A stretch of DNA of 60,039 nt, the filler included, from Asterionella formosa (lineage: Eukaryota): assembly GCA_002256025.1 (NCBI GenBank). It is 4 parts of 4 records of this genome, joined end to end, with 100 filler letters (N's around TTAATTAATTAA, not from the genome) between each part and the next. Parts side by side here need not be neighbours in the genome. Positions count along the whole stretch, not along the records: positions 30,096 to 45,023 come from NKIB01005675.1; 3 more parts are not named here. The stretch is one strand, 5' to 3'. The notes below the pieces were generated by a model. It saw only the letters and a program-made list of their open reading frames with translations, was not told the origin of the DNA and ran no database searches. The first letter of the stretch is position 1; the number at the start of each line of letters is the position of its first letter. The position numbers and the translations under genes are program-made. Shown piece after piece: positions 14,952 to 51,200 of this stretch.

Positions 14952-15051
14952 NNNNNNNNNNNNNNNNNNNNNNNNNNNNNNNNNNNNNNNNNNNNTTAAT
15001 TAATTAANNNNNNNNNNNNNNNNNNNNNNNNNNNNNNNNNNNNNNNNNNNN
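14952..15051. other. Artificial scaffold-joining spacer (N44-TTAATTAATTAA-N44)
   Basis: Identical 100-nt construct also at 29996-30095 and 45024-45123; gives stops in all six frames. Confidence 0.97.
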
Positions 15052-22894: not shown

Positions 22895-22984
22895 GCAAGT
22901 TGCGGTAATTTTGCTTAAACTAACAATTCAATATGGGATAAAGATAGCTAAACTTTTGGTTTCAGCAAAACTTCCGCAACTTGC
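22895..22984. mobile_element. ~88-bp MITE-like element, copy 3 (opposite orientation to copy 1)
   Basis: GCAAGTTGCGGTAATTTTGCT...AATATGGGATAAA...AGCAAAACTTCCGCAACTTGC. Confidence 0.75.
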
Positions 22985-23567
22985 TGGTGGTATCTTCCAT
23001 TCGTTAAGTGCTTCTTCAGCTTTCGTCCTTTTTTTCCATCTCGAACGAATTTCACACGTGGAAGTTGGCCAACAGGAATGTTACAAGAACTTACTTGTAC
23101 GATACCNNNNNNNNNNNNNNNNNNNNNNNNNNNNNNNNNNNNNNNNNNNNNNNNNNNNNNNNNNNNNNNNNNNNNNNNNNNNNNNNNNNNNNNNNNNNNN
23201 NNNNNNNNNNNNNNNNNNNNNNNNNNNNNNNNNNNNNNNNNNNNNNNNNNNNNNNNNNNNNNNNNNNNNNNNNNNNNNNNNNNNNNNNNNNNNNNNNNNN
23301 NNNNNNNNNNNNNNNNNNNNNNNNNNNNNNNNNNNNNNNNNNNNNNNNNNNNNNNNNNNNNNNNNNNNNNNNNNNNNNNNNNNNNNNNNNNNNNNNNNNN
23401 NNNNNNNNNNNNNNNNNNNNNNNNNNNNNNNNNNNNNNNNNNNNNNNNNNNNNNNNNNNNNNNNNNNNNNNNNNNNNNNNNNNNNNNNNNNNNNNNNNNN
23501 NNNNNNNNNNNNNNNNNNNNNNNNNNNNNNNNNNNNNNNNNNNNNNNNNNNNNNNNNNNNNNNNNNN

Positions 23568-29995: not shown

Positions 29996-30095
29996 NNNNN
30001 NNNNNNNNNNNNNNNNNNNNNNNNNNNNNNNNNNNNNNNTTAATTAATTAANNNNNNNNNNNNNNNNNNNNNNNNNNNNNNNNNNNNNNNNNNNN
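29996..30095. other. Artificial scaffold-joining spacer
   Basis: N44-TTAATTAATTAA-N44. Confidence 0.97.
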
Positions 30096-31961
30096 AAGTA
30101 ATTTCTTAAGTAATTTTTATTTAAGGGCAATATGGGGCACATCGAATTTTTCGGCAATAAAATTGCCGATTTTAGCATGACAACCAGAATATCGGTAATA
30201 TGCATAGAGATGGTACAACAAGCGTAAAACACACGAGAATGATTGTAACATGCAACATCAATGAAAATTGAACATAATGTTTGGAGCAACCAAAGTATGA
30301 AATGCGATGTAATAAGTAGCATCAAATGAGAAATAGAAAAAAATTTGGGTAAGAAATGAAATAAAAAATAAGAGTTCCAATGGAGATGTATGCATTGTGA
30401 ATCATTGTAGTACTTACACAGGCAGCATTGACTTTCCATCGCCATACAATCGAAGACTGAAAGAAGAAGAAAAGCTCAACCCAATGTAGACCTGCATCGT
30501 TATTTAGCGTCAATGGTCTGGTTGCTGCAACCATGCGCATCGCTGTAGTAGCCTGACACCAGTAGCAGTATTTCCGCCACAGTCATTCCTCTCCGCCCAC
30601 CAAACAGAAAACCCCGATCATTCCATTCTGAGCAAGCATGATCGCCATGCTGCTCCAGCATTATTGACTCTCTCTAGCTGAGTATTCATGTAGCTTCTGA
30701 TATGAACTCGCAGTAGAAATGCAGCAAAGCGCGTTAGTACAAGAAAAGCATTGCTTGGCGGCAATATTGACATCATTGTCAATGACTGTACAAATCAACA
30801 AATGCGATCAACAACGGCACAATACCTCATCTTCAATGAGTATTCATTGATAAATGCATTGGTTCTTATGTAGATACATACAATCGAAAAAAAACGACAG
30901 TATGTAACGAGAAACGACGATGGAAGCGATCAAAACAAACCATGGAAGCAATCAAATCGGAAAGTCGACAAATACGATCTACAATCCACATTCAGTGTTT
31001 CACTGTTGTACTTACCAATCCACTTCAACTAGCATAACAAGCAGCAGACTATGAGATCAAAGAAAGACGAATGTTGCCTATTGCAAGCCCGAATAGAGCA
31101 AAGGCAGGCAAGATAGAGTGAGAACTATATTTGTGAGGACGAAATAGGGCATACGGTACGTGAAATCAATGAATATGTGAACGATATAATTCAACATTTC
31201 AGGTCTCGTAAAAATTATATCGAGTCTACAGAGATAATATTATTACGTGTTCAAAGTAAGCGTTAAAGCATAGCTTAAACCATACATGGTTGTTTTTAGT
31301 ACCACGTACGTATGTAGACTAGATGACTGCCGGTAACCGGTAGAATATCCGTTAAGCATCATTACATACATGACCGGAGCAAAAACTTGCTACCAACATC
31401 AGATGTATCGATATCATCGTTCGTCCGACGAAATATGGACGATGCGACTACATGAATGCCTCGAGAAGACAAACAATCCAACAATCAACCGCATCCTTCA
31501 GGCAAAGAATCGCTACTGGCGTCATCGCAGAACTGATTTCGCTTCAAACCGGTCATGATGGACAACGATTGGCATGGTGAAAGGTGAGTTACCGGAGTCC
31601 ACTTTTCAGGAGACGAACAAAAACGAGGTGAATTATAGATATAAATTATTAGAATCTGAATAGTATATAAAATGGTTTCCTTAAGTAGACCCCTTGCCGA
31701 TTTCGGCAATCCCAGGGCTGGAAAACCGAGGGGCAATTGGTGTCTGTTGTCTTGCCAAAATACGAACGTATGAAATATACAAAATATATATTAATGATGG
31801 GCAATATCGGACCTTTGGCAATTTTCGAGGTGAAGATAGGAAATATCCAAAATATATTTTGTATGATGGGCAATAGTAGGCTAAAATTGACAGTTATGCT
31901 AAATTTGTGGGCAGTAGGTAAGCGAATGACGCGACGATAGCTAGAGCGGGAATTGCCTCAA

Positions 31962-32103
31962 CAATACCCTTCTGGGCGGCTACTTGCCTTCTCGTACACA
32001 TGTGTACTCGACTGGGTTGGCACTCGTAGGGTGACCTTCTCGCGCCACCCAGACTCGAACACATGTATACTCGCAGGCAAGAGACCACCTCGGGCGTGTA
32101 TTG
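31962..32103. repeat. Long fold-back with periodic CTCG/CTCG internal loops
   Basis: CTCG at 31991, 32007, 32023, 32039, 32054, 32070 and 32089. The spacers between them are mutually complementary in nested order. Confidence 0.8.
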
Positions 32104-32919
32104 CCTTCAGTACTCTTTAGCAGAGAAACATTACAACGTGCCCCAGGTAAGCAAAGTCATTCAATAGTAGTGAACAGGCACAGTGTGGTGGAAATATGTA
32201 TGACCACTACATATGTATGTTGAACAACCCAGGATTTATACCGGGCAGCCAACAGCTACCTGCTGGCTGGTGACAGCTAGCAGTAAAACCAACAGGGTAT
32301 GAAATAAATTACATAGCACATATTACTAGTAGAATAAAGCACCTAGTAAACCTTTTTCTGTGTCCGGCAATGATTGGGTTTGTCGTGATTTGCAATGCAG
32401 TTGTTTATATCTGTCATGTCATATCTGATGAAACCCAAATCAGCAGAATTTATTAGCAAAATCTGCAAAATCGGCGCCATTTATTTAGTTTTTCGGGTTC
32501 CTTTATTCATCAGATTTGAAGCGATAACTCGCAGTATCTCTATATATGAGCGCTTGTTTTGTGACACACTCCACTGTCACGACCATCTTTTCGGAGTCGT
32601 GGATACAAATTTCAAGGCAATTCGGAGGCAATTTAACTTTAATTAAATGTTTTCTAAGCTAAGAAAATCACCATCCTGACCCCCGGTAAAGTAGGGGTGT
32701 TTCCAATACGCCTACACTACGTACACGGGTAGTACTACTAGTATGCATAATACCAATGGTAGCGTAAGGCATTACCAGGAGTACCTACTACACACTGATT
32801 GCTCTGTTCACCACAGTTTCCTTTACACTGCTGTTTCACCAGATTTTAATATGACAAAAAGTCTTATGAAAAAGTATTTTTACCTCATAATGACTTATAA
32901 TTGTTTTTTGAATTTATTC

Positions 32920-34573
32920 ATGCAGCCTTTCGCAGAACATTTGCAAGACACACTAACCATGCTTTTCCTTAAAGCATCCACAACCATTTGTGCATTCTTT
33001 CAGACACCTACACCTTCGTTTTGACTTGCTATCTTGAGGATAACACAAAGCATGAGCTTGCTGCATACTCATTTTTCTACAATTTTCACAAGCAAAAGTT
33101 CCATCAAGTATGGCTTGTCTCTTTTCATTCAAATATGGTGAAATGGCTGCCTCATTTGAATGGACAATGTATATCGTCTCATTTCTCCCTTTTCCAGAAC
33201 ACATAATGCCATGATCAGTTACTACTTGTATTCCTTGTCCAAGTTCATTTGTAGATAGGGCGAAGACAATGATTGGAATTCCATGTGGATTGCTTACATC
33301 TCTGCAGTCCATTTTAAGTGTAACTATAGACCCAAAAGTTGCTTTTTGCCTTGACTTCATATGTCTGCCTTTCATGTATTTGCTTTGATCCTTCTGTCGT
33401 TGTGCTCTAACATATTGTGCATGTTTTTGTCTTGCATTTTTCTTTGATTTCAACGGATTATTAGAGCTGTTGAAACAAGTGATTACCTAGACTTTTGTTG
33501 TGTTGCAGATTTTCATCTTTACTGTGGCAGTAGACGTGGAAAGACTGCTCTTTTCTCTCGGGTTTTTCATCATCGCTACTGGTTTCATCATAATCATTTG
33601 TTGATTGAGTTTGAACACTGCTGCTGCTAACATCAGGTCCTTCCAAAATTTCAGCAAAACGTTGTGAAAAGTCACAGCCACTGAAAGTGGTGTCACAGAC
33701 ATTGCCAACCTATGGCAATGTAAACTCCATGGAGATCTCCTTCTTTCACACTGTCTCTCTTGAAAACATAGAGGCTTTTTATTAGATTGCCTTCCACATC
33801 TTTCTTTGATCTCACTGTATACTTTTTTACAAGTGAATAACCAATTGGATGCTATTGCGGTATCTCTGGAATATCCCGGTTTTCAATACTAGACACAACT
33901 TCATTGTATTTCTCATCAGTCATGTCACATGATCTATTTTTCCTGTTCCTATTGTGTTATACGCAATTTCATTGTATTTCTCATCAGTTATGTCACATGA
34001 CCCTGCTTTTCCTGTTCCTGGTGTGTTCTTTTCCTTTGTTCCTGCTGTAATTCTTGCAGTCTTTTTCTTTGTTCTTGATTTATCATTTTCGATTCTCTTT
34101 CCAGCCCATGTTGAAGTCGTTGTTCCGGCTTCCGCTCTTGGAGTTTTTCCTGCTACCATTGACTTTTCATTCCTTGTTGCAGCCATTGTTCCGGTTTACG
34201 CATTGACTGGAGTTGTACCTGTGCCCGCCTTTTCATTCCTTGTTGCTGTTGCTGTTCTGCTTTCCGCATTGACTGGAGTTGTACCTGTGTACGCCTTTTC
34301 ATTCCTTGTTGCTCCAATTGTTCCGGTTTCCACATGATCAACTGGGGTTGTACCTGTGCACGCCTTTTCATTCTTTGTTGCTGTCTTTGCTCCGGTTTCC
34401 GCATTGACTGGAGTTGAGCCTGATCCCGCGTTTTCATTGAAAAAACCAAAAGCTACAGCGTTGAAATGCGTGCGATAGGATTCTCTCATTCTTTGTGCAT
34501 CACCAATACTGACAGTGGCATTGCCATGATCATTGGACGAAGATGTAGAAACGTATGAGAATTCGCTCACCAC
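32920..34573 (-). pseudogene. Decayed ORF, probably transposon-associated, with 22-aa repeats and a Cys-rich C-terminus
   Basis: ORFs 34196-34573 and 33920-34186 are in one frame, separated by a single TAA (GAA in the sister repeats). The downstream piece has FGSIVTLKMDCRD...HGI...VVTDHGI...CRCLKECTNGCGCFK/..CKCSAKGCMN, reminiscent of C-termini of integrase-like DNA-transposon proteins. Confidence 0.45.
34164..34437 (-). repeat. Coding tandem repeat, 66-bp unit x4 (one unit 69 bp)
   Basis: TTTTCATT anchors at 34164, 34230, 34296, 34365 and 34431. Unit encodes ~NEKAGTGTTPVNAETGT.AATR. Confidence 0.9.
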
Positions 34574-34962
34574 ATACTCTTCATCACTACTGTCTTCATT
34601 GCGATTCTTCTTCTAAGAATTCATCTCAAATCAGAGGAGCTTTTCCGGAATATATGTACAAGATGAAGGGCTGTGAGCAATCAATAGATTTAGTTGTGCA
34701 TTGACTTCTATTGAAGATTCACTGCAAGTAAGTAAGTACACGTGGCTACAGGTAAGCATTTGACAGGAAGGTCCGGTAATCAGCGCACATAGCATGCAGG
34801 TTGCTCGTTTTCTGTTGATCGATTCACGTAGTACGAGAAAAAGGAAGGGGTATACCCCAAAACTTGTCGAACCCCTAAATTTTGCGCCACTCCGATGTTC
34901 TTTAAATAGTTGTTTACATAGACATTAAGCCGTTACTCGTTTTATTGTCAAAATGAACTTGA

Positions 34963-35462
34963 AGTCAGCAGACAGGAGTCAGCGAGTTTTAATCAAAATT
35001 TCAGCGAATCAAGTCAGCAGTCAGCAGTTAGCAAGTTGAAGTCAGCATTTTAAAGATAGACTAGTAGCGGTACATGGTGGTAGCAATATCACGAAGTAGA
35101 TAGCAATGAATTTATTTAGGCATCAATGTCGATTTCACAGTTAATTGTCATGTACGGAGTACCAGGTACCAGGTACTTCTATGTTACTCCCGATAGTATA
35201 CAGTATGAACGTAGAAGGCATCACATTTAGTATCCCATCAAGATGATGCATTTCCTTCGTTATTCTAAAATGAAAAGTAGACACAATTCGTACACCCGTA
35301 ACGGTAGTCGGTCTCTTCCTATGTACAAAGTAGCTTCTTTGACGTCAGCATATTGAAGCTAGCAGTCAGCAGTCAGCGAATATTTCAAATTTTCAGCAAA
35401 ACAAGTCAGCAGTTCTTAGCAACAAGAAGTCCGCAGTCAGCAAGTTGAGGTTGGTAGTCAGC
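34963..35462 (+). repeat. Two clusters of AGTCAGC motifs (subterminal-repeat-like)
   Basis: Multiple AGTCAGC at 34963-35047 and 35343-35462, sharing the context AGTCAGCGA...CAAA.TTTCAGC.AA.CAAGTCAGCAGT. Confidence 0.7.
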
Positions 35463-35852
35463 GATTCTGCGGTGAAAGGTGGCAGCGCTTTTCAGTTTGA
35501 AAGTTTATAACGCTTACAGGTAATCTAAATAAATTGAAATAATTTGAGATTTTCATCATTTTGGAATTGGTGAGCCGGACAGACTTCCAATGAAGTAGGT
35601 TGAAACCGCTACGTGGAATTTTTAGTATAATAGTGCGCGCAATTTGCTGATTGATTGCTATCACTCGCTACTCAGCATACTACGTTAAAAAACGGATTGA
35701 TTATTCAAATATTTTGACATGTTGATGATAATTTTACGTCCTGCTCCTACCTAAATAAATCTAAGTTTTGATAGACAAAAGAGGTTTTGGGTGAAAAAAA
35801 TTACCCAAAATTTAGATAGGAGGAATCATGAGGCCTGCGTCAGAAATATATT

Positions 35853-36360
35853 TGATGAGGATAAACGACTACTGTTAGCAGACAGTAGTATATCTAGCTA
35901 GTACTGTAATGACTGCACAATCTGCACAACCGACAGTCGTGGTGAGGAATTCCATGGAACAAGAAGGTCAGATCAGGAAAATATATGCTGGATTCGTAAA
36001 TGGAATAGCAATTCCTACAGAGCAAGTCCAACATGCAAGATTAAATGATAAGACTGAGAGGAGTGGAATCGCAAATCGTATGAAATAGACCAATGAGAAA
36101 GAGTGGATTGAGGTGAAGAACAAATCCAAGAAAGTAAGATTCGTGAAACAAGATCAATTTGGTAAGACCAAGTAATTCGGCAGGATTGATAGAATTTGGT
36201 AAGATTGATAGAAAAAGTAATCTGATGTAATCACAACATTGAAAGAGGTTAATCTAAAAGTAGACTAAAGTGTTGTCAAAAACTAGCTAGTAGTGGAGAA
36301 CTAGTAGTACTGGACACTAGACGTGTAAGTACTATCAAGGAGATCTGGAACATCTCAACA
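35853..36360 (+). repeat. 5' LTR (508 bp)
   Basis: TGATGAGGATAAAC...CATCTCAACA; differs from the 3' LTR by 6 substitutions and one 4-bp indel by my count. Confidence 0.95.
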
Positions 36361-36424
36361 AGTTTTAATAAAAAATTGCTTTTGGAAGTTAAGGTCGCAA
36401 AGACAAGAAGTAATTGTGCAAAGG

Positions 36425-39400
36425 ATGAGTGAAGCAAAGAAGGCTGGAACAGTCCTGGAGTCGGTCAAGGTCATTCCTTTCTATGGAACTGACACTACAA
36501 AGGGGGGAGTTGAACCCCGAGAATTTTTCAAGAAGGCTGAGGTATTTGCTGCCACAAACGGTTTCAAGAAGGTGTTACTCGAAGAAGGAGTTCTTCCAAG
36601 TTGGGCAGAGAAAAAAGATTTGACAAAAGAAGAGATGGAGTTGGTGAGACAAGATGGTGAAGCAAAGCATTTTCTTATTATGTCATGCAGAGGTGACGCT
36701 TTTGCAATCATTGAATCATATGAAACAGCATACCAAATGTTTCAAGCTCTCAAGGACCGGTACAACTCAAAGAAGACAAAAGATTTGGTAAAAGCAACAA
36801 CCAAACTTGAAAACTGTTACATGAAATCAGACATAGATGATCCCTACCTTTGGATTGTCGAAATGGAACGATTGAGCAGAGAAGTGGAAAAGTGCGAAAA
36901 TGGATCAAGACGCAGTGAAGAGCAAATGCAACCAACCATATTAGCAAGACTACCAAAACAAAGATATGAATCAGTGATTACATCTCTAAATGGAAACATT
37001 GGTACAAAAGGATTTTACAATAAGGAATTCATAGCTGAGATCATTGGCCACTATGAGTTGTTTGTGGAGCCATTCAAAAATCGTCAAAATCGCGAAAATC
37101 AAGATCAAAGAGAGAACAAGGAAAGGGGAAAGCATCCGGTTCTGAATACTACAAGTGGAAAAGGTGCCTGGAGAACCTTTAAAGGTAAATGCAACAAGTG
37201 TGGAAGACAAGGCCACAGCAGAAGCAATGGCAACAGCCACAACAGTGGAGAGAAAGACATTGAAAAACCGGAGGTGAAGTGCTACAGCTGCGGTGGATTT
37301 GGACACATTGCAAGAGATTGTCCAAAGAAGGAAGAGTCTGGTATGTTTGTTGGTATGACAATCCATGGAGCTGATATCCAGGAGGATGATGTCAAGAAGA
37401 ATCAAGAAGCTAAAACAGAGTATTTTGACACAAATAAATTCGCAATTGAATTTTTGCAAGAAATTGCAGACTATAACAGGAAGAAGAGAAGTGTCTTGAA
37501 AGACATAAGAGAATTTAAGTGGAAACCAAGAAAATACAACAACATCCAACAAGGGAAAAGCCAAAAGAAGAAAGTAGAGAAAAAGACCATGAGCTGGGCT
37601 GATATGTGTGAGACAAGTGATGAGGAAGATATGACGATGTCGACAAAAATGAGAACAGAGGAATTGTTCTTGATGAGAAAGACCTTATTTACCAGATGGA
37701 CAAAACAAGCCATGGAGCAGAATGGATGTGGGATGAGGAAGTTTTTGCTACAAATTCATTGAAAACCATGAGCCCTGTCACAGAGAGTGTACATGAAAGT
37801 TGGCTTGTTGACTCAGGGGCAACAACCCATGTGTCCATCAACACTATAAAAATGAGTAATTTGCAGACTGCAAGTGAAGGTGAGCATGTGAGGGTTGGAA
37901 GCAATGAAACCCTTAAGGCAACAGCGATTGGTGATATAACTCTGGAGCAGAAGGACACAAAGAAAACACTGAAATTGGAAAAAGTGATGGTTGTTCCCGG
38001 TTTTGCTCGAAATTTGATAAGTGTCGGCAGGTTGACAGAGGAAGGAAACGAATTTGTGGCTGGAAAAGAAGGATCCAAGATATTTGATGATTCTGGTGGC
38101 ATCATGAGTTTTGAGACAGGAACCGATGGTATGGCTTATCTGATTGCACAGCGTGTTGCTAGAGCAAAAGAGGTCTACAATATTGAATAAATTAAAAATG
38201 ATGATGGAATGATTAAGATACAGAAGAAAGAAATAATGAACATTATTGAGGCACACAGAAAATTTGGGCATGCAACAGAAAAATTGTTGCGAAAAATGCT
38301 GCAGGCACTTAAGATCATACCAGTTGGGAAAATGTTGGTGTGTGATGGCTGTGCACGAGCAAAAGCTACCCAGAAACGAACAAACAAGGTGACTACAGTG
38401 GTAGCAGAAAAACCTGGCGAGAAAATCTATATGGATACAAGTGGCCCATATTCAGAGACAGTGATGGGGTCACGTTATTGGTTTAAATTTGTTGATGACA
38501 AAACAAGGAAGTCATGGGATTTTTATGAAGCAAGAAAAAATGGCATAACAAAGGTACTGAAGGAAATTTTGGACAAGTTGAAGGCTGCTGGGAAGCCAGT
38601 ACAATATCTACGGTGTGACAATGCGGGCGAGCATATTTTTGAATTACGAAAAATATGTGAAGGAGACTATGGAATTCAGTTGGAGTACACAGTACCTCAC
38701 ACACCACTGCACAATGGAGTGGTGGAAAGGATGTTTTCACGTCATGCAAAACGTGCGCTGTCAATGATGATAATTTGCTGCATGGACCAAAGAGATGCAA
38801 GCTAAATTATGGGCTGAAGCGACAAAAACAGCAGCAATACTAGGAAAATCCCTTCCAAACACCCGAAGTGCAGTACCACCTGATGAGCTATTTTTATGGA
38901 AAACCTAGTGACATCTACACACACTTGATTGAGTTTGGAAGAGTTGGTTATATTACAAACAGGTCCACAATGAAAGGGAAGTTCAAAGAGAAAGCAAATC
39001 CCATGGTAATGATTGGCTATGGTGAGAACCATGCCAGGGCTGTGTATGGCATGTTTATGACCCTGAGTTGATTTTGGAGGAGCCAGAACCTCCAGAAGTG
39101 ATTGAAGAACCTGATGAGGACAGTCCCTCTATCCATATAATTCCCACATATGAGGATGAATTGGCAGAATCCACATCAAACCTGGATTTTAGATTGTCTG
39201 GAGCAGGGAGGAAGTATGAGGAGGAAAAGAAAACTTTAGAAGAAAAAGACTCAAGAATTGAGCAAGAAAATGAAGAGGATGATGAAGAAAGGAGTGATGA
39301 GTCAAATTCGAAGCAGACAGACGACAGTGATGTTGATGCCTTGTCAGAAATTTATAGACGAACAAATGCTCCAGAAATGGAAATGTATGGAGCAGATGAG

Positions 39401-41269
39401 ACTGTGGAAGCTGGTGAGCAAGCTGAGAGACCACAACACAATTCGACAAGGTTGAAAAATGAAATGAAACGGCTGGGAATTGAAGTGCCAATCATGATTG
39501 AAGATGGTGAAATTGGAATAAGAACACGCAGTAAGACGGATCAAGTGGCATTCAATGCAACACTAGTAGTGTCAGATCCTGGAGAACCTAAGACATTTCG
39601 GAAAGCCATGGATGGTAAAAGCCGTGACAAGTGGGAACCATCAGCAAGAGCAGAAATCAATAACTTTTTATCAAGAGATGCATGGTGGCATAGGTTTCCA
39701 AGAGAAAATCTGAAGGACCGTAAGCCCATACCTGTGAAAAGGATAGTCAAGGTGAAGGAGGAACAAGATGGTTCAAAAAGGTTCAAGAGCAGGATTGTGC
39801 TGAAGTGCTATGTGATGATGGTCCCAGGAGTGGACTATACGGAGTCTTTTTCGCCAGTCGCAACAGATACAACAGTCAGGACAGCAATTGCTATGGCTTT
39901 ATATTGCTCGCCAGAATGAAGAATGGACCATTGAGATGATAGACATCGAAGCAGCGTTCTTAAATGCAGAATTTGAATCAGACAGGCCAGTATAGTATGC
40001 AGAATGGCCAGAAGGCATGGTGGAACTTGGATTTATTACAGAAGAAGAAAAGAAGGAGTTTTGCACCACACTGACAAGAGCCATGTTTGATGGAGTCGAT
40101 GTCCAAAGACTTTAATGAAGACACTGTGCAAATACTTAACAAAGGAAATGAAGATGACTCAGAGCTTGGTGGATCCATGTTTATATTACTGGAAGAGTAA
40201 AGTAGATGAAGTCATTCTGATGGCTGTGGTACATGATGATGACGTTTTTTTGATTGGAAGAAAGACAAAAATTGAACTTCAAGTTGGAAATACAGAAGAG
40301 GTTTAATATTTCGGATTTGGGAATATTGAAGAATCATCTTGGCGTATAGTATGAATGAAAAACTGATAAAAATGGTGAAATCTACATTGTGGGTAGTATG
40401 ACAAAGTTGGAGGATGAAATTATTGAGTCATTCGAAAATATAATTGGGAAGAATGTTAAGGAGACAGAGACACCAGGATATCCAAACAAGTTCCTAAGGA
40501 AGGATCAAGGAGGAGAACCAGTAAAAATGACGGAATAACGTTCTTTGGTTGGAAAAGTAATGTATTTGATGACAAAGTTGGCACCAGATTTCACGAGAGT
40601 TGGCACAACATCTGTCAAACCCAGGCGAGGAGCACTGGAAAGCACTTGAAAGACTGGTTGGAAAAATTAAAGCAAGATACTATGATGGGTTGACATATCG
40701 GAGCCCAAAGGAGCTGAGGCCTATATCAAATGTGGACTCAGACTATGCAAAGAATATTGATAGCAGGAAGAGCGTTTTTTCTGGTCTACATACAATCGGT
40801 GGTACATTGGTGAACTGGGAGTCAAAGACACAACATGTAATTACATTGTAAAGCACAGAAGCGGAGTATATCAGTTTGGCAAAAGGAGCATGTGAGAACA
40901 AGTTCATATCCATGCTACTTGCTTGAAGAAGTGATGCAATATCCAAAAGAGGAGAATTTGTTTGTTGGGCTTGTATAGAAAGACAATTTAGGAGCTATCT
41001 ATTTGGTACTAAAGACCCAACATGTGGGTGCAAGGACAAAGCATATTGATGTCAGGGCACATTTCATCCGAGAACTTGAAGATCAAGGATATTTGATGGT
41101 ACATTTTGTACGATCGGAAGAGAACTCAGCTGACATACTAAGCAAGAACGGTCCAGAGAAGTTGCACACAAAGCACGCAGCAAGGATAAGAAATGGGAAT
41201 CTTGAATGTTGGAGAGAGGATGTCGAGGATAAACGACTACTGTTAGCAGACAGTAGTATATCTAGCTAG
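36425..41269 (+). pseudogene. Copia gag-pol polyprotein with many stops and frameshifts
   Basis: Zn knuckle CYSCGGFGHIARDC; protease WLVDSGATTH; integrase HRKFGH..CDGC, YMDTSGP, LRCDNAGE, NGVVER; RT PGVDYTESFSPV with VHDDD at the YVDD position; RNase H VDSDYA and RTKHIDVRAHFIRE. Confidence 0.93.
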
Positions 41270-41732
41270 TACTGTAATGACTGCACAATCTGCACAACCG
41301 ACAGTCGTGGTGAGGAATTCCATGGAACAAGAAGGTCAGATCAGGAAAATATATGCTGGATTCGTAAATGGAATAGCAATTCCTACAGAGCAAGTCCAAC
41401 ATGCAAGATTAAATGATAAGACTGAGAGGAGTGGAATTGCAAATCGTATGAAATAGACCAATGAGAAAGAGTGGATTGAGGTGAAGAACAAATCCAAGAA
41501 AGTAAGATTCGTGAAACAAGATCAATTTGGTAAGACCAAGTAATTCGGCAGGATTGATAGAATTTGGTAAGATTGATAGAAAAAGTAATCTGATGTAATC
41601 ACAACATTGAAAGAGGTTAATCTAAAAGTAGATTAAAGTGTTATCAAAAACTAGCTAGTAGTGGAGAACAAGTAGTACTGGACACTAGACGTGTAAGTAC
41701 TATCAAGGAGATCTGGCTGGAACATCTCAACA
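41221..41732 (+). repeat. 3' LTR (512 bp)
   Basis: TGTCGAGGATAAAC...CATCTCAACA, directly after the polypurine tract. Confidence 0.95.
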
Positions 41733-41903
41733 TATATTTACTCACAGCTAATTTATTTTAAAGAACAAAATTACAGTACCGGTACTCACCAGATTTTGAG
41801 TGCTCATATCATTTCAGCTGAAATGACGTAACATATCGTGATCCGATTATTATTACTAGTCTTTATTATGCTCGCCTATATACCTGGCTAAATAGTGTGA
41901 ACC

Positions 41904-44075
41904 TGTTGAAAGGTCTCGTACTTCTTCCCGTCTGACTGGTTCCTCTTACATAGGACTTACCTGTTATACCACTAGTATTGTTATCTTCTTTCTGCTGCTA
42001 GCCTTCGTGCTAGTTTTCGCTATTGACCTTACTCTGTCAATTCTCACTGTTTCTTAATTGTAAGCTTAAACTAAAATTAAGTTTCAATCCCATTCATCAC
42101 ACTTCGAGAACCTGTTCTTCGTGTTCCCTTTTCGTTGATGTAAACCTTCTTTTGATTGATCTAAGTCATCAATCTCGTTAGCAACCTTCTTGACATGGGA
42201 ACGCACCATTTGACTCATTGGACTATAGTCGAGTCCACAGTCCTTGTGACTCATTATAGCCATTGAGGCTATATTCTTGACATCCTCTTCGTTACGATGT
42301 TCAAGAAGTTCTAAAATTGTACCACTCAGTACAGGTCCAGATAACCTTGTAAAAATCTGCTCTTTGACATTCTCCGTCAAAATGTCTGCTGGATTGTTTT
42401 CTGATCTTAGAAAAACAATATGCAACTCACCCTCATCTATCATGTTCTTGACATGATGAAACTTAATATCAATGTGTTTTGTTCTTTTTCCAAGTTGTTG
42501 ATTCTTTGCTGTGAATATTGCACCTGTATTATCCTCACATAAAATGCTTGGTAGGATATTTTTGCCACCTGTCACTTCGTTGAGTAACATTGCAATAAAT
42601 TTGATCTCTTGAGCACATTGCGACATCGCAACGTATTCTGCTTCTGTGCTTGACAGCGTAATGGATGACTGGCCCTTTGATTGCCAACTGATCAACGCAC
42701 CACCAATGGTAACCAGAAAACCCGTATTACTTTTCCGGCTTACCTTATTAGCAGCCCAGTCACTATCAACATATGCGATAACCCTTAATTCCTTAGGTTT
42801 TCGAATCTTGAGAACTCTGTCCAATTTGCTTGATAAGAATCCAACAACTCGTGAAACTCCATCCCAGTGTTCTTCGCCTGGACAGCTTAAATACCACGAT
42901 AATTCACATACTGCATTGGCACAGTCCGGGGAATCTTTCTTAGTAGACCATAATAATTTCCCAACAATCTTGCGATATTCCGCCTCCATAATAGTTTCTC
43001 CATTATTGGCTCCTAATGTTTTTCCTGGTGCGCCTGGTGTCACATAAGACTTTATCTTCTTACCAGTAAGCATCTCATATTCCAGTGGCATTTCAGTACG
43101 AAATTTCTTCAGCTGTACTTCCCAGTATTCTCCAAATTTGTCATACTTGCGCATATATTCCACACCTAAATGTTTTCGTAGGGGACCTTGTTCCGTGATA
43201 TTAAAATCCTCCTTGATCATATTTTTCATGTAGTCCACTGCATTTCTGGTACCACAAATAATTCCATCATCCACGTAGTTTGCCAACAGCCCTTCAACTT
43301 TTCCATCGTTGTTACGGTAGATAAACAACATTGGGTCTATTTTGCTTTTCGTTATTACTGTCTTGCTGGTGACGCATTTCGCAAATGTCTTGGACCAGCA
43401 TCTTGTAGCTTGTACAATTCCATACATAGCCTTAATTAGTTTGCAGATATGTATATTCTGATCAATCTCTGTCAATCCTTCTGGGGGTCAATATAAATGT
43501 CTTCGTCGACGTCAGCATTTAAAAACGCTGCTTCAACATCGATTGCTTCCGCTATCCAACCATGGTACAAAGTAACAGCCAGAACAGTTTTTATTGTAGC
43601 ATCACTTGCAACAGGAGCAAATGTCTCAGTAAAATCGACTCCCGGGATTTGTTCATATCCCTTCACAACCAACCGTGCCTTGTATACTGTCTTGCTGGTT
43701 CTCACGTCCTCCTTCATACGGAAGACCCACCTTGTCTTAAGAGCTCGCTTGTTCACGTCATTTCTCTTAACTATTTTCAACACTCCTCTTGCTTTGAAGT
43801 TTTCAAATTCTTTCTTTATAGCTTTCATCCACTCTTTGCGATCAGGTCTTACCATTGCCTCATTATAACTATTTGGTAAACCTGGGTCCGATGCAAGACT
43901 TACATTGAATACGAAATTTACTTCAGTTTCCTTTTTCGAAGAAGCTTCCTCCTCAATCACATTTGGTAGTGAAGTGTCTGGAGTGAATTTAACACTTTTA
44001 GTTGGATTATACAATGAGTCCAACTTCCTCATTTCTCGTTCCAACTTTGCCTGTTTAGATAGGAGCGTAGTTGGG
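41904..44075 (-). mobile_element. Second, 5'-truncated Ty1/copia element: RT-RNase H plus a probable 3' LTR (41904-42282)
   Basis: YKARLVVKGYEQIPGVDFTETFAPV, IDVEAAFLN, KAMYGIVQA, YVDD, YVDSDWA, SSTEAEY and RTKHIDIK; one frameshift at ~43473. On the minus strand, GAAGAGGA is followed by TGTCAAG...CCTTTCAACA. Confidence 0.9.
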
Positions 44076-45023
44076 TATTTACATCTACAACGCCGATTAC
44101 TGGTACAGCCGCCACAAAAAAAACGCTAGTCAAATATGATCACCCAAATTAATTATTTGGGTGGCCCAATATGACGAATTTACCTACGTACATAATTTAA
44201 GGGTATGACATCACAAAAAAATATGATGCATCATACAATATATATGGACGGAGTGAACTAAAATAGTTTCGACAACTTCCATAATTATTTTAGAAACCCA
44301 CATAATTTTTGGGGCCAACTGACAATATTTTCTTGCGACAGGAAGAAAAATTTGTTCAGTAATAATCTCTATAATACGGTACTTTTCTCGACAATTCGCA
44401 ACATTTCCGTTCACAAATATTCTTCACTCTGACTACCATTAATTCTGTTAGTTTGCTCCCATTTTATCTTTACTTTGATCACATTAATACCTCAAGGTTA
44501 AAAAAATATATATGCTAGTCAAACAAATAATTATGTGTAACCAATTCACTTTTTCAATTTCATTCTACAATCGCAAAATCAATCAAATTAATCGCTTCGC
44601 TATATAGTAGTTTATATTGATACTTTCTATAGAACGTGATTCTCAAACCAATACGACAAGCAATGGATGTTCATTCTTGCAGCTGGATGCTGTAACAACT
44701 CACAAGATTGCCTGGCTACTCATACTTGCAGGAGTCCCTGTTGCTAGTATCGGTAGATCAATTCATAGCAAATGAGCCGGCTGCTCATTCTCATTGCTCA
44801 GATTGATTGTCTGCTGTAGAAACAAGAGGGCAACAGCATTTGCAGAGTGAGTTGATGAGATATCAAAAGTTGCGAAGCCATGATTTCGGTTCTGTGTGCT
44901 CCTTACCATGTTCCCCAATGGCCATCCCAGCCCTCATCAAATTGATTGTCTGCAATCAGTGAACAACGGTCGCAGAGTGAGTTCATGGACGAACAATTTT
45001 TACAAAGGCATCGTTCTTGTTGT

Positions 45024-45123
45024 NNNNNNNNNNNNNNNNNNNNNNNNNNNNNNNNNNNNNNNNNNNNTTAATTAATTAANNNNNNNNNNNNNNNNNNNNN
45101 NNNNNNNNNNNNNNNNNNNNNNN
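45024..45123. other. Artificial scaffold-joining spacer
   Basis: N44-TTAATTAATTAA-N44. Confidence 0.97.
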
Positions 45124-47692: not shown

Positions 47693-47780
47693 TAAGGTTG
47701 GTAATTTTGGTGAAACTAAAAGTTTAGTAATCTTTATCCCATATTAAATTGTTTATTTAACTTACATGACCGCAACTTGC
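47693..47780. mobile_element. ~88-bp MITE-like element, copy 4
   Basis: GGTAATTTTGGTGAAAC...TCTTTATCCCATATTAAATTGTTTATTTAA...ATGACCGCAACTTGC. Confidence 0.75.
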
Positions 47781-47929: not shown

Positions 47930-48019
47930 GCAAATTGAGGTCATTTTGCTTAAATGATCATTTTAATATGGGATAAAAACAGCTAAACTTATAGTTTCAG
48001 CAAAATTACCGCAACTAGC
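47930..48019. mobile_element. ~88-bp MITE-like element, copy 5 (inverted relative to copy 4)
   Basis: GCAAATTGAGGTCATTTTGCTTAAA...AATATGGGATAAA...AGCAAAATTACCGCAACTAGC. Confidence 0.75.
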
Positions 48020-48272
48020 TCTTATACTGGTACCGGTAATACTGTGTTTAATGGTGTATAAGACGTAGAAAGAAGTGTCCGTTATTGGCGGTTCGCGCAA
48101 TGAGCAGCAGCCTGCCGGCCTCTCCTATTGGCCGTTGTTATTTCCGGCTCACAATTTCCTTTCATGTGACTAGCAGCACATTTCATTCTTTGCCGTCGAT
48201 CTCGTGCGCCATTTTCATAGAGACTCAAACGTTTGCCAACAAAATCCAAACAAAAAAAAGGTTTTCAAAACC

Positions 48273-51200
48273 ATGGGAAACGCACCGTCCACTTCTCAAG
48301 AACAACAGCTGCAAGCAGCATCGTTTGATGAATCTCGATTCACGCAAATTAGTCCTTCGTCGACATTGTCCAATCCATCCAACTTTGGACGTCACCGTCA
48401 GCCACCACCGCCACAACAACTTCAGCGTTCCTTGTCTCGAGTTGCAGTTCGTAATCAACCGACTTCCAATGGACATCAACACAATCAAGATACTATCGGA
48501 GAACAGAATCTACAATTGTTGAGAAAGAAGAAGAAGAAAAAGAAAAGGTCCCACAAGAAAGTTACACAATGCTTTGCTGGCTGCTTTCAAGAAAGTGCTC
48601 ATGTGGTGGACAAGGTCAAAATCATGACTCAAAACTGCACTACTGCCACTACCACAAAGATGAAAGCCTTCAAGGCTTCTCTCAAGACTAGCGCCATGCC
48701 CTCGGCCCAAGAGCACGTAGCAACGGCAGTGGTAGATCCAAATGTTATCATTCATCCACCGCCGCTTCCGACTGAAGTTTCCTTTTTCTTTCAACGATCA
48801 GAAGAAACTACACCTAAATGTCGATTGTTGGATCATGAAGCATTTGATGAAACCATGACAGGTGCCGTGCATCAAGAAGAAGACTACTTTGATCGATTGG
48901 CGACATCTGCTGAACCATCGCCTTACATAAATCATCATCATTCCAGGTCTATGTCCTACGAACAAAGAGTTTCACGACATATTTCGGAGTATGACGTTGG
49001 ATGCTTGTTTGGTGATGGAGCAATGGACAACAGTATGAGTAGTCCTAGTCCCACAGTCAATTTGCGATACCTCAATCCTGATGAATCGGCATTAATGTCC
49101 CTCTATTTGGATGAAGAAGCAAAGAATAGAACCATGGAAATGAGTTTTATGACAAGTCCTGTATCTGCCATGTTGCGCCGCTCCATGCAAGAACCTCCAA
49201 CTCCAGTACTAAAAGATTCGACATTCATGTCGTTGTATGTTCACGAGAATGACAATGCTGTAAATATCAGCTGCATGGAAAGTCCAATCGTTGCCAACAA
49301 AACACCGTCCAAGTTTGTCCTTTTGGAGACTGTATTATCACCTACTCCGACTACAGAGTTTGTCATGTCGCCCATGGAACAACCAACTCCACAACCTTCC
49401 ATATTTAGGGAACGTAGTGATACGAAAAAGCATCCGGTGGTGAATGAAACTAAACTACCCACGATGAATGGCATCATGGCGAACCAGCCGAAACTAGCAC
49501 CAGTGGTGTTGAGTGACAAGAAGCAGAAGCTACCACCACCAGTAGTTGTGAGTGACAAGAAGCAGAAGCAACCACCACCAGTAGTTGTGAGTGACAAGAA
49601 GCAGAAGCAGCCACCACCAGTAGGTGTGAGTGACAAGAAGCAGAAGCAACCACCACCAGTAGTTGTGAGTGACAAGAAGCAGAAGCAACCACCACCAGTA
49701 GTTGTGAGTGACAAGAAGCAGAAGCAACCACCACCAGTAGTTGTGAGTGACAAGAAGCAGACGCAACCACCTTATATGTTGAGAGTTGCTGATGTTCCGG
49801 CATTGGTGGATGATGATAGCCTTATGTTGAGAGTTGCTGATGTTCCGGCATTGGTGGATGATGATAGCCTATTTTTGGAATCAGACGATGCTTCAGTTGA
49901 TTCCGACGCACCTCTACGCTTGAGAACTGATGAAGAACTCCTTAAAACTGATACAATACCCAAAGTCAATACATTGGCTTCCTACATGCTGTCGTCTAGG
50001 TCTTTCGAAAAGAAAAAGCACTTTGACCCTAAACGAAGCATGGACGCTTTAAACAAAGGCAACGCTGTTTGTCATAATGAGACACAAGACTATCGCAATA
50101 TTGCCTTGTCAACGTCGGAAACATCAGACATTCCGGATATCATGCCTGTACAGTCGCGTGAAATGACATTTTCTTCTCCAGCCCCAAATCATCGCATGCC
50201 CCTTTTGAGTCCTGGCATGGATTCTATCATGTCTACTCCGGGAAAATCTCCCGTTCCCCTCCTCTCCAATCAGTGCCTGTCAAATGCAGCATTTTTGTTT
50301 TCTCCCAGCTAAGCTGGCGGTAACGCAGCCCCCTTACCAGCCCAAAATCATTGCATGCCCCTCATGAGTCCTTGCATGGATTCTATCATGTCTACTCCGG
50401 GAAAATCTCCTGTACCCCTCCTGTCCAATCAGTGCTTGTCAAATGCAGCATTTTTGTTTTCTCCCAGCTATGCTGGCGGTCAAGCAGCCCTCTTACCTAA
50501 ACCTGGTGCTCTTGCTGTCACCGCATTCTCCATTTCAACCTTTCCGTCTCGAAGCCGACTTGGTAGTGCTTCGTCTCGATCCCAACACTCTGTCACGATT
50601 CCAGTGGCCGGAACAAGCACGCTTTCTCGATCCAGTTGGTCGCAAAGCGTTCAAGAATCTTCCCAAGGTCGTTCTCAACAACAGAATCTCAAGCAAGTAA
50701 GATTCAGTGATACTGATAATTTCTGTGACATTGAAACCTTGGAAAGATCGTCAGTGACACACATGGCTGGAAAATTCGTTAATGCTGATATTCAGACAAA
50801 GATTTCCGATCTCTCTGAGACCTCTAGCATGTTTGGTGCTGCAAATTTCAAAGGCTTACCTTTTTCGAACGCTGGGGACAGGACCCCTGAGAAAGCAAGT
50901 GAAACGGCAAAAACACATTGGTCCTACCGGCAAGGCGACACCAACAAGATGACTACACCAGTTTCCTATAAGTCGAACCCGGGGGTTCCGTCCAAGTCTC
51001 CCATGCTTCGTTTTCGGTTTGCAAAAGAGAAGTTTGCTAACCCTGAAGCAAAGAAGGTTCCAGCCAAAAAGACACCTCCTAAGAAGTTTTGGAATCGAAC
51101 TCCGAAAAAGTCTCTTGTGTCTACTCGCATTGCTGATCTTCATTATCAATTAACCAAGAACGCTCGTACTGGAAGCATGCGCAGGACCGAAACTGCTGCG

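What the first reader, a model, noticed from the sequence alone, without database searches (positions are those of the whole stretch)
31962..32103. Fold-back with a 16-nt ladder of symmetric CTCG/CTCG (minus strand CGAG/CGAG) internal loops
Seen: CTCG recurs at 31991, 32007, 32023, 32039, 32054, 32070 and 32089 (spacings 16,16,16,15,16,19). The spacers differ from each other but pair in nested order: CTTGCCT/AGGCAAG, TACACATGTGT/ACACATGTATA, CTGGGTTGGC/GCCACCCAG, apex AGG-GTGA-CCT, outer CAATAC/GTATTG. Each CTCG therefore faces another CTCG rather than its complement. A simple inverted duplication would give CTCG/CGAG, and a tandem repeat would give identical spacers, so neither explains this. 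Established: 5'-GA-3'/3'-AG-5' tandem sheared pairs closed by C-G are stable motifs in RNA and ssDNA and are often recognised by proteins. Inference: the minus strand forms a selected rod with three evenly phased tandem G.A motifs. It could be an undescribed structured ncRNA or the cis-acting single-strand signal of a mobile element. It lies in a gene-free, TE-rich scaffold.
Basis: partly seen in the sequence, partly recalled or inferred. Interest (0 to 1): 0.8.

Follow-up and report, generated by a model that had tools for sequence, protein, structure and literature searches.

The report
Ladder hairpin ending a diatom transposon
The odd fold-back is real and sits a few bases from one end of a non-coding mobile element present in thousands of copies in a diatom genome, where it most likely serves as the single-strand signal that a rolling-circle-type transposase recognises.

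Summary
Seven CTCG on one strand sit at the stated places. They form a 142-nt fold-back in which CTCG faces CTCG, and chance does not reproduce this (0 of 20,000 sequence shuffles; 0 of 200,000 column shuffles).

The fold-back is not a free-standing RNA gene. It lies 7-9 nt from the end of a very high-copy repeat: 64,039 contig pieces of one DNA run align to the 2,001 bases laid. The host is a diatom.

Translations of 20 other copies, found as spurious ORFs, show same-strand rungs on both arms across the family. They also show a longer form with an extra rung pair, a short form, and rearranged forms.

The element is about 2.1 kb and non-coding. It has no long terminal inverted repeats. It carries a short palindromic GGCAAT-type motif at one end and again just inside the hairpin, plus internal tandem repeats, deletion derivatives and one head-to-tail junction.

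This architecture fits non-autonomous Helitron2/Helentron-like rolling-circle elements best. No transposase was seen, and the TT target was not confirmed.

The middle rung can pair in a shifted TCGA/TCGA register. Which strand is functional is unresolved. I could not run a nucleotide-level covariation test.

The parts
30096..32111 (+). One copy of the repeat element, about 2.08 kb when complete. Its left end (about 63 nt) is lost at the contig end and linker. It has no ORF of 120 aa or more.
   Evidence: Very high depth over 31000-32138, with loose ends at 32110. P0142 matches 30322->30098 at 97% and then continues 21 aa to the element's end. P0136 is a deletion derivative that joins the hairpin side to the 30104-30190 region. 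The linker is at 29996-30095.
31962..32103 (.). The ladder fold-back: an outer stem, three CTCG/CTCG rungs, a degenerate fourth rung (CTGG/CTCG) and an AGG-GTGA-CCT apex.
31991..31994 (+). Rung r1 (CTCG), which faces r6.
32007..32010 (+). Rung r2 (CTCG), which faces r5. It can instead pair as TCGA/TCGA in a shifted register.
32023..32026 (+). Rung r3 (CTCG), which faces r4.
32039..32042 (+). Rung r4 (CTCG).
32054..32057 (+). Rung r5 (CTCG).
32070..32073 (+). Rung r6 (CTCG).
32089..32092 (+). Rung r7 (CTCG), which faces CTGG at 31972-31975.
31995..32006 (.). A perfect 12-nt palindrome, TACACATGTGTA. Its partner at 32058-32069 is 90% alike both as a direct and as an inverted repeat. Deletions between the two give the short form.
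   Evidence: Family D7; joints 32001->32064, 32002->32064 and 32004->32068; short-form ORFs.
31948..31957 (.). GGGAATTGCC, a near-palindromic motif 4 nt inside the hairpin. It is the candidate subterminal inverted (or direct) repeat of the far terminus.
   Evidence: Sequence. The far terminus is read from P0136 and P0142 ('SGNC'), whose degenerate codons are compatible at 9 of 9 positions, of which 6 are determined. This is an inference.
32104..32111 (+). A short tail (CCTTCAG plus 1-2 nt) between the hairpin and the element's end.
   Evidence: Loose ends at 32110 in all 4 runs, with low agreement beyond. Five ORFs share A-E-G-N/S and have different residues before it.
31764..31875 (+). An internal tandem repeat: two units of 68 nt, each carrying GGCAAT.
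   Evidence: Families D1-D4 and D14 (87% over 39 nt).
30152..30168 (.). A small hairpin, CGGCAAT-AAA-ATTGCCG, near the element's other end.

Best explanation
The fold-back is the subterminal stem-loop of a high-copy, non-autonomous, non-TIR transposable element of a diatom, about 2.1 kb long. Its architecture is that of Helitron2/Helentron-derived rolling-circle elements (HINE/DINE-like, or the 'reverse' proto-Helentron layout).

Shown here:
- The hairpin lies 7-9 nt from the repeat's boundary.
- The family has thousands of copies.
- Both arms carry the tetranucleotide on the same strand in many copies.
- Long, window-like, short and rearranged forms all exist.
- The element has no coding capacity, has internal tandem repeats, has deletion derivatives that keep both ends, and shows one head-to-tail junction.

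Inferred:
- During transposition the element is unwound and the hairpin forms on single-stranded DNA.
- The palindrome supplies the structure that a Rep-type (HUH) transposase uses to find or terminate at the end.
- The rungs are non-self-complementary and point the same way on both arms. This makes the hairpins of the two strands different (T.C/C.T on one, sheared G.A/A.G 'CGAG blocks' on the other), so the strand and orientation can be told apart.
- In duplex form the rungs also give a direct-repeat array, one CTCG every ~16 bp, of the kind Rep proteins bind as iterons.
- The palindrome is unstable. Slippage between the palindromic 12-mers or between rungs gives the shorter forms, and the window's copy is one of these.
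For: Repeat and boundary:
- Run X1 laid 64,039 contig pieces on 31000-33000. By identity class (99+, 95-99, 90-95 and under 90%) these were 9,748, 25,111, 25,683 and 3,497.
- Summed depth is 1.2-3.8 million over 31000-32138, against 0.02-0.33 million beyond.
- Loose ends at 32110 were seen in 65, 45, 26 and 5 contigs of X1, X2, X10 and X19, with only 0.38-0.53 agreement beyond that point.

Host: the neighbouring pieces' proteins are nearest to diatom proteins.

Family conservation of the ladder:
- 20 ORF translations of other copies were recovered.
- Of 51 anchored rung dipeptides, 25 are CGAG-only, 16 ambiguous, 7 neither and 3 CTCG-only. r6 is 5 of 5 CGAG-only, r3 is 5 of 5 and r7 is 5 of 7. 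So both arms keep the same orientation.
- By my reading of their residues, P0142 and four other long-form ORFs (TVRVA or GAP.AARR markers) show further rung-compatible dipeptides.

Forms: 7 long, 2 window-like, 6 short, 4 with a centre in the opposite orientation and 1 unclassified, out of 20. The long form is also seen as loose ends at 32034 in 36, 12 and 13 contigs.

Architecture:
- No TIR of 18 nt with up to 3 mismatches, and local alignment finds only 9-11 nt.
- No tRNA-like head.
- No Pfam domain in the two ORFs of 90 aa or more that lie within the element.
- GGCAAT occurs 11 times in 30096-32111, against about 1.2 expected from the window-wide shuffle mean.
- There is a 68-nt tandem repeat.
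- P0136 keeps both ends with about 1.65 kb missing. P0142 shows the far end of the window's copy abutting the hairpin end of another copy.

Literature (passages read):
- Helitron2/HLE2 have short terminal or asymmetric inverted repeats with a stem-loop after the right repeat, or at the 5' end in proto-Helentron/'HLE2-reverse' (PMC11417382).
- HINEs have 12-15-bp palindromic subTIRs, a 3' palindrome 8-35 bp from the end, central tandem repeats and high copy number (PMC4067079).
- Tandem insertions and joined ends are reported for Helitrons (PMC5148889).
- Hairpins are general recognition features of HUH transposons (PMC10288648).
- CGAG repeats form DNA hairpins held by G:C and sheared G:A pairs (PMC10085684, abstract).
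Against: - No Rep/helicase or any other transposase was found. None is in the window, and the genome is not held.
- The TT target and terminal T runs of Helentrons are not seen. The 3' flanks begin with T in the window, and in most contigs with letters that read CAA.
- The candidate inverted repeat is only 9-10 nt. It is nearly palindromic, so it is equally a direct repeat. Its far copy is inferred from degenerate codons of two ORFs, not read as DNA.
- Known Helitron-type stem-loops are 5-20 bp, whereas this one is 142 nt or more.
- The left boundary rests on two ORFs. Continuity of the repeat between about 30322 and 30789 was not shown.
- 3 of 51 rung positions read CTCG, and 4 of 20 copies carry the centre in the other orientation. 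Some copies have therefore lost the uniform ladder yet persist.
- No nucleotide alignment of copies could be made, so stem covariation is untested.
- No function was tested.
Confidence: 0.45

Rival explanations
1. The hairpin is the end signal of a mobile element of another class. One option is a Replitron-like HUH element, which has short direct terminal repeats plus a right-end hairpin. Another is a non-LTR retroposon whose 3' stem-loop is recognised by its partner's reverse transcriptase. A third is an undescribed class.
For: - ATTGCC-type motifs lie at or near both ends in direct orientation, and a hairpin lies at one end, as described for Replitrons (PMC10288648, passages).
- No TIR and no TSD was found.
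- The element is present in contigs of RNA libraries X10 and X19.
- 3' stem-loops followed by short tails are known from stringent LINE/SINE pairs (recalled, not checked here).
Against: - That paper's own protein survey detected no Replitrons in any diatom.
- Deletion derivatives that keep both ends (P0136) and a precise head-to-tail junction (P0142) are not the usual pattern of 5'-truncated retroposons.
- There is no poly-A or microsatellite tail. The consensus beyond 32110 has only 0.38-0.53 agreement.
- There is no tRNA-like head.
Confidence: 0.25
2. The ladder has no function. It would be a by-product of how an unstable palindrome inside a transposon grows and shrinks. Each CTCG pair is formally a 4-bp direct repeat that flanks a nested palindrome. 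Repeated duplication, insertion or template switching at that tetranucleotide could then build the pattern, and amplification of the element would spread it.
For: - Every spacer that sits at or near a centre is itself palindromic: the 12-mer TACACATGTGTA, the AGG...CCT segment, and the G+C-rich apex of the long form.
- Copies differ by whole ladder units, and deletions and inversions end at the 12-mers or rungs.
- 4 of 20 copies have inverted centres.
Against: - The same tetranucleotide, in the same orientation, is kept at rungs on both arms in copies whose translations are only 57-87% identical to the query.
- By my reading of the residue changes (R>Q, P>L, S>L; not counted by a script), most of the 7 'neither' cases look like CpG transitions rather than conversion to a perfect palindrome. 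Quasi-palindrome correction should otherwise erase the mismatches.
- No known mechanism makes such a ladder.
Confidence: 0.17
3. The hairpin acts as RNA, either as a structured non-coding RNA or as a hairpin precursor of small RNAs that silence the element family.
For: - The minus strand folds very stably as RNA (-74 kcal/mol, z -8.1).
- Contigs of two metatranscriptome runs cover the region, for example X19 records 22-24 over 31753-32043.
Against: - Rfam gives no match.
- The RNA libraries may contain DNA, and contigs give neither strand nor ends.
- The position at the element's boundary and the family-wide length variation fit a DNA end signal better.
- The 16-nt phasing matches no known dicing register (recalled).
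Confidence: 0.08
4. Chance, or an assembly artefact such as a fold-back chimera.
For: The hairpin lies in a short contig of a draft assembly that is broken by repeats.
Against: - Contigs of four runs from four studies cover it, and 20 independently called ORFs from other contigs carry it.
- Shuffle tests give 0 of 20,000 and 0 of 200,000.
- Chimeric fold-backs are perfect palindromes, and this one is not.
Confidence: 0.02

Closest known systems
Helentron/Helitron2 non-autonomous elements (HINE, DINE-1-like; HLE2, including the 'reverse' proto-Helentron layout known from the stramenopile Phytophthora)
   Same: Both are non-coding and high-copy. Both have a short palindromic subterminal repeat at one terminus and again just inside a terminal stem-loop, with the stem-loop a few bases from the end. 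Both have central tandem repeats, deletion derivatives that keep the ends, no TSD, and tandem head-to-tail copies.
   Different: The stem-loop here is 142 nt (longer in other copies) rather than 5-20 bp, and it carries a ladder of same-strand CTCG rungs. The repeat motif is only about 9-10 nt. The TT target and terminal T runs are not seen. No RepHel partner is known. I found no mention of diatoms in the HELIANO survey's main text (0 occurrences).
Replitrons (Rep-only HUH transposons of algae, plants and protists)
   Same: Both have short direct repeats at or near both termini, a hairpin at the right end, no TIRs, and non-autonomous copies that outnumber autonomous ones.
   Different: The Replitron hairpin described is an 11-bp palindrome. 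That paper's protein survey found none in any diatom. No Rep gene was seen here.
Subterminal imperfect hairpins of IS200/IS605 and integron attC sites (recalled, not checked here)
   Same: These are single-strand DNA sites in which mismatches or extrahelical bases in an imperfect palindrome tell the enzyme which strand it holds.
   Different: They are prokaryotic, much shorter, and have no periodic ladder.
CGAG blocks in DNA hairpins (AUTS2 promoter; PMC10085684, abstract read)
   Same: CGAG facing CGAG gives G:C pairs plus sheared G:A pairs in stable non-canonical DNA hairpins.
   Different: There the CGAG units are contiguous repeats in a human promoter. Here single blocks are separated by 11-12-bp Watson-Crick stems inside a transposon end.

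Membership tests
Canonical Helitron (HLE1) | 5' TC, and 3' CTRR preceded by a short hairpin 10-12 nt upstream | tested here: not met
   The end reads CCTTCAG(C/T) with no CTRR. The other end, inferred from P0136 and P0142, reads (GC)AATTGCC rather than TC. A hairpin near the end is present, but it is 142 nt.
Canonical Helitron (HLE1) | Insertion between A and T | tested here: inconclusive
   Only a few junctions could be read, mostly through degenerate codons. The window's flank starts with T, and the consensus of other copies starts CAA.
Helitron2 / Helentron / HINE (HLE2) | Short (12-16 nt) terminal or asymmetric inverted repeats, the inner one lying just before the terminal stem-loop | tested here: inconclusive
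   GGGAATTGCC at 31948-31957 lies 4 nt inside the hairpin. The far terminus, read from 'SGNC' in two ORFs, is compatible at 9 of 9 positions, of which 6 are determined. It is shorter than typical and nearly palindromic.
Helitron2 / Helentron / HINE (HLE2) | Stem-loop within a few to about 35 nt of one terminus | tested here: met
   The hairpin ends at 32103, and the repeat boundary is at 32110-32112.
Helitron2 / Helentron / HINE (HLE2) | Insertion in TT, with T runs at the termini | tested here: not met
   There are no T runs at either end. Flanks read so far do not show T|T.
Helitron2 / Helentron / HINE (HLE2) | An autonomous partner encoding Rep-helicase with the same termini | not testable with these tools
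   No genome is held. There is no Rep or helicase domain in the 42 window ORFs scanned: 17 and 25, with 7 scanned in both, out of 96 ORFs of 90 aa or more listed.
Replitron | Short direct repeats at or near both termini plus a right-end hairpin | tested here: inconclusive
   An ATTGCC-type motif occurs at the inferred far end, at 31952-31957 and at 32100-32105. The far end was not read as DNA.
Replitron | Y1 Rep transposase | not testable with these tools
   None is in the window. The survey in PMC10288648 found none in diatoms.
TIR DNA transposon / MITE | Terminal inverted repeats and a fixed-length TSD | tested here: not met
   The 18-nt end has no inverted copy with up to 3 mismatches. The best local alignments are 9-11 nt. 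No convincing TSD was found. Caveat: the window copy lacks its far end.
LTR retrotransposon (solo LTR) | 5' TG...CA 3' ends, a 4-6-bp TSD, and a second LTR or internal region | tested here: not met
   There is no second copy in the window and no TSD. The head-to-tail junction cannot be read as TG...CA at both ends. The window's copia LTR pair at 35857-36360 and 41225-41732 is unrelated.
SINE | A tRNA-, 5S- or 7SL-derived head | tested here: not met
   ARAGORN finds no tRNA-like gene in the window. Rfam finds nothing in 30000-34000.
Known structured RNA family (Rfam 15) | A covariance-model match | tested here: not met
   0 matches at E<=1 in 30000-34000 on both strands.

The most novel reading that the evidence does not exclude
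Diatoms carry a so far unrecognised, very successful lineage of rolling-circle (HUH) transposons. Its end signal would be a long single-strand DNA rod in which 11-12-bp stems alternate with non-self-complementary CTCG/CTCG rungs (CGAG/CGAG on the other strand). On this reading the rungs are the transposase's iterons. They point the same way on both arms, so the enzyme can tell the two strands apart and measure the end. That would be a new solution to strand choice in single-strand transposition.
Probability: 0.3. Interest if true: 0.75.

Novelty: new variant of a known kind. Interest (0 to 1): 0.5.

Why it matters
Terminal hairpins are how HUH-type transposases find their ends, but those described so far are short and simple. 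A 140-200-nt rod with a conserved ladder of oriented mismatches would show how structure and direction can be encoded together in one DNA signal.

It would also mark a rolling-circle-type family as a major genome component in diatoms. The papers read here did not report such elements there: Replitrons were not detected in diatoms, and the HELIANO main text does not mention diatoms. I ran no search aimed at proving absence from the literature.

Practically, the element breaks assemblies. The window's contig ends in a copy.

Tried and rejected
- Whole-genome search: no genome is held.
- Self-BLAST: the hairpin is single-copy in the window.
- Pattern scans for other copies all failed.
  - The flank-based pattern in viral contigs gave 6 chance hits, which I took to be phage coding sequence.
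  - The hairpin pattern in viral contigs gave 0.
  - The two-12-mer pattern in metagenome contigs gave 117 loci. None is homologous by BLAST at word 11 or word 7.
  - The hairpin pattern in prokaryote genome contigs gave 1 chance hit in a Babeliales MAG.
- Because of this, no nucleotide alignment, covariance model or R-scape-type test could be made.
- Searching with the + frame ORF over the hairpin found nothing.
- Two long repetitive proteins, P0131 and P0134, came up. They have 8-9 weak stretches and no related Pfam family. I dropped them as unrelated.
- A first automatic rung tally without local anchoring was noisy because alignments ran across frameshifts. The anchored tally replaces it.
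- TSD search: only chance-level 5-7-mers.
- Atlas look-up of a neighbouring ORF gave no useful taxon.
- Earlier-findings look-ups returned nothing.
This says nothing either way.
- P0127 begins with a stretch holding a YLDD-like motif, which I recall as typical of reverse transcriptases. Pfam found no family. It is kept only as a lead for a nested insertion.

Full report
**The observation**

The + strand carries CTCG at 31991, 32007, 32023, 32039, 32054, 32070 and 32089. It has no CGAG within 31962-32103.

Both strands fold much better than shuffles.
- As RNA, the + strand gives -63.1 kcal/mol (z -6.2) and the - strand gives -74.0 (z -8.1), with 0 of 200 shuffles as good in each case.
- With DNA parameters the values are -27.7 and -34.6.

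The ladder is not chance.
- 0 of 20,000 dinucleotide-preserving shuffles reach seven CTCG, and any 4-mer reaches seven in 5 of 20,000.
- I shuffled the 47 aligned columns of the hairpin, which keeps every pair and mismatch. Three C-G/T.C/C.T/G-C rungs arose in 0 of 200,000 trials, and two rungs in 6.

Four amendments are needed.
- The rungs have unpaired neighbours. There is also one extra C.A mismatch and one bulge.
- In the minimum-energy folds of both strands the middle rung pairs as TCGA with TCGA in a shifted register, rather than as a 2x2 loop.
- The seventh CTCG faces CTGG.
- The window is four pieces joined by N44-TTAATTAATTAA-N44 linkers. The hairpin's piece, 30096-45023, is indeed gene-free and full of transposons. 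It holds a copia element with 98.4% identical LTRs at 35857-36360 and 41225-41732, and a second copia fragment. The other pieces carry ordinary genes.

**Host**

An AMP-binding ORF on the neighbouring piece is closest to diatom proteins. It is 62% identical to Epithemia and Entomoneis, and 56-59% to the other named diatoms (Chaetoceros, Mayamaea, Fistulifera). The best named hit, at 66%, is a MMETSP record whose organism name begins 'Gra'. The pieces were presumably binned together, so I take the host to be a diatom. No whole genome is held.

**Context: a very high-copy repeat that ends just after the hairpin**

Words of 31000-33000 occur in 23 listed runs from 19 studies. Most are freshwater metagenomes, and six are RNA libraries. 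I laid four runs at 85% likeness.
- Run X1 alone placed 64,039 contig pieces on the 2,001 bases. By identity class (99+, 95-99, 90-95 and under 90%) these were 9,748, 25,111, 25,683 and 3,497.
- Summed depth is 1.2-3.8 million over 31000-32138. It falls to 0.33 million in the next bin and to 0.02-0.17 million after that.
- At 32110, contigs run on into unlike sequence: 65, 45, 26 and 5 contigs of X1, X2, X10 and X19. The consensus beyond agrees at only 0.38-0.53. That marks a repeat boundary 7 nt after the hairpin.
- Among the 40 best-supported 'other letter' rows shown, none lies in 31894-32184. This suggests the window's hairpin is close to the family majority, but 180 rows were not shown.
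- Joints 32001->32064, 32002->32064 and 32004->32068 show copies that lack the hairpin's centre.
- Contigs of the two RNA libraries cover the hairpin. This does not show transcription.

**Getting at other copies**

Pattern scans of the public collections found only chance hits, so I could not build a nucleotide alignment.

What worked was indirect. The - strand has an open 70-codon frame across the hairpin. Searching its translation found ORFs that gene callers had predicted on other copies: 7 in the 90%-clustered set and 20 hits in the 50%-clustered set, 5 of which repeat the first seven. Two long repetitive proteins were dropped as unrelated. That left 20 translations in all, 13 of them new. 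I aligned them back to the window with tblastn.

**The ladder is a family trait**

Depending on codon phase, a dipeptide at a rung can allow CGAG only, CTCG only, both or neither. I counted only positions where at least 3 of the 4 flanking residues are identical. That gives 51 minus-strand-aligned rung positions. Of these, 25 allow CGAG only, 16 are ambiguous, 7 allow neither and 3 allow CTCG only.

Rungs on both arms keep the same orientation:
- r6: 5 of 5 CGAG-only
- r7: 5 of 7
- r3: 5 of 5
- r2: 6 of 12

Most of the 7 'neither' cases are changes such as R>Q, P>L and S>L. I read these as CpG transitions (inference). One of the 7 is the junction of a short form.

The three CTCG readings are all at r2. 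They come from a variant ('SLEH') that would make this rung almost fully paired.

**Forms of the hairpin**

By marker peptides, the 20 copies fall into 7 long forms, 2 window-like forms, 6 short forms, 4 with a centre in the opposite orientation and 1 unclassified.
- The long form has one more stem segment, two more rungs and a G+C-rich apex. It is also what the loose ends at 32034 show, in 36, 12 and 13 contigs of X1, X2 and X10.
- In the long form, the 12-nt segment that makes the window's apex is a stem spacer. This explains why the 16-nt period runs across the apex in the window. I infer that the window's form arose by deletion, but the direction of change is not proven.
- The short form lacks everything between the two palindromic 12-mers. 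These 12-mers are at once direct and inverted repeats (family D7). That accounts for the deletions, and plausibly also for the four copies whose centre is in the opposite orientation relative to the flanks.

**The element**

P0142 matches the window at 30322->30098 with 97% identity. It continues for 21 residues that the window lost at its contig end, and then reads straight into the hairpin end of another copy. P0136 has the hairpin, about 20 residues, the 30190->30104-like region, and the same last residues ('SGNC'). After that it diverges.

Together these place the far terminus about 63 nt beyond 30096. They give an element of about 2.08 kb, show a deletion derivative that keeps both ends, and show one head-to-tail junction.

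The element has the following features.
- It has no ORF of 120 aa or more and no Pfam domain.
- It has no tRNA-like head.
- It has no long TIR.
- No TSD was found.
- GGCAAT occurs 11 times in 30096-32111, against about 1.2 expected. Two of these lie in a 68-nt tandem repeat. A pair forms a small hairpin at 30152-30168. One lies in GGGAATTGCC at 31948-31957, 4 nt inside the big hairpin. One lies at 32100-32105.
- The far terminus is read only through degenerate codons. It is compatible with the reverse complement of the 31948-31956 motif at 9 of 9 positions, of which 6 are determined. Because the motif is nearly palindromic, it is also compatible with a direct repeat.

**Comparison with known elements**

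Passages read in four papers give the defining features.
- Canonical Helitrons have 5' TC, 3' CTRR and a short hairpin. Helitron2/HLE2 have short terminal or asymmetric inverted repeats with a stem-loop after the right repeat, a TT target, and a 'reverse' layout (stem-loop at the 5' end) in proto-Helentron and some fungal elements (PMC11417382; PMC5148889).
- Their non-autonomous HINE/DINE derivatives have 12-15-bp, sometimes palindromic, subTIRs. They have a palindrome 8-35 bp from the 3' end, central tandem repeats and very high copy number (PMC4067079).
- Tandem insertions and joined ends are reported for Helitrons.
- Replitrons have short direct terminal repeats and a right-end hairpin, and were not detected in diatoms (PMC10288648).

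The present element meets the layout of the HLE2 group, but not the TT target or the repeat length. It fails the canonical Helitron ends. No transposase could be looked for. I therefore say it works like a Helitron2/Helentron-type non-autonomous element and do not file it as a proven member.

**How the ladder may work (inference)**

HUH transposases act on single strands and often read hairpins. A perfect palindrome gives nearly the same hairpin on both strands. Rungs that are not self-complementary and point the same way on both arms make the two strands different. One strand gets T.C/C.T mismatches. The other gets G:A pairs closed by G:C, the 'CGAG block' shown by NMR to stabilise DNA hairpins (PMC10085684, abstract). 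In duplex form the same letters are a direct-repeat array with a period of about 16 bp.

Which strand is used depends on the element's orientation, and that is open. The + strand would be used in the canonical layout, and the - strand in the 'reverse' layout.

The main rival is that the ladder is a by-product of palindrome growth, since each rung pair is formally a 4-bp direct repeat around a nested palindrome. I cannot exclude this without nucleotide data.

**Verdict**

This is a new variant of a known kind, a transposon end hairpin, with an unusual and conserved architecture. Supplementary files of the cited papers were not consulted. They may hold terminal sequences that bear on the comparison.

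Noticed in passing
window 14952-15051, 29996-30095, 45024-45123: The window is not one contiguous locus. Four pieces are joined by N44-TTAATTAATTAA-N44 linkers, so adjacency across these points is artificial.
   Followed up: yes
window 35857-41732: A copia-type LTR retrotransposon whose LTRs are 98.4% identical (35857-36360 and 41225-41732). It carries gag, Pol beta-barrel, integrase and RT domains in several frames. A second copia RT fragment lies on the minus strand at 42087-44125.
   Followed up: partly
window 32112-33000: The DNA just beyond the element's end is also repeated in the same runs, at roughly 10-100 times lower summed depth. It carries three more GGCAAT motifs, at 32366, 32616 and 32627. 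Its nature is unknown.
   Followed up: no
window 34163-34438: A tandem repeat with a 66-nt period (4.1 copies, 80% matches), or equivalently a 135-nt period.
   Followed up: no
window 7886-7982, 22896-22994, 47700-47780, 47930-48020: A short (~80-100 nt) repeat, 81-86% alike, occurs in both orientations on three different pieces. At 47.7-48.0 kb it forms an inverted pair. It may be a MITE-like element.
   Followed up: no
protein P0127 (from another contig): This ORF starts with a stretch containing a YLDD-like motif, which I recall as typical of reverse transcriptases. It then runs directly into the hairpin end of the element, which suggests an insertion into a retrotransposon. Pfam finds no family in it.
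   Followed up: partly
protein P0128 (from another contig) against window 30789-31065: Its first 95 residues match the + strand of the element's interior (56% over 62 residues). They are followed by the hairpin end on the - strand. This looks like one copy inserted into another in the opposite orientation.
   Followed up: partly
window 54301-54510 and 49481-50497: Short internal direct repeats lie within or near long ORFs that have no Pfam family (48174-50309 and 50313-51893).
   Followed up: no
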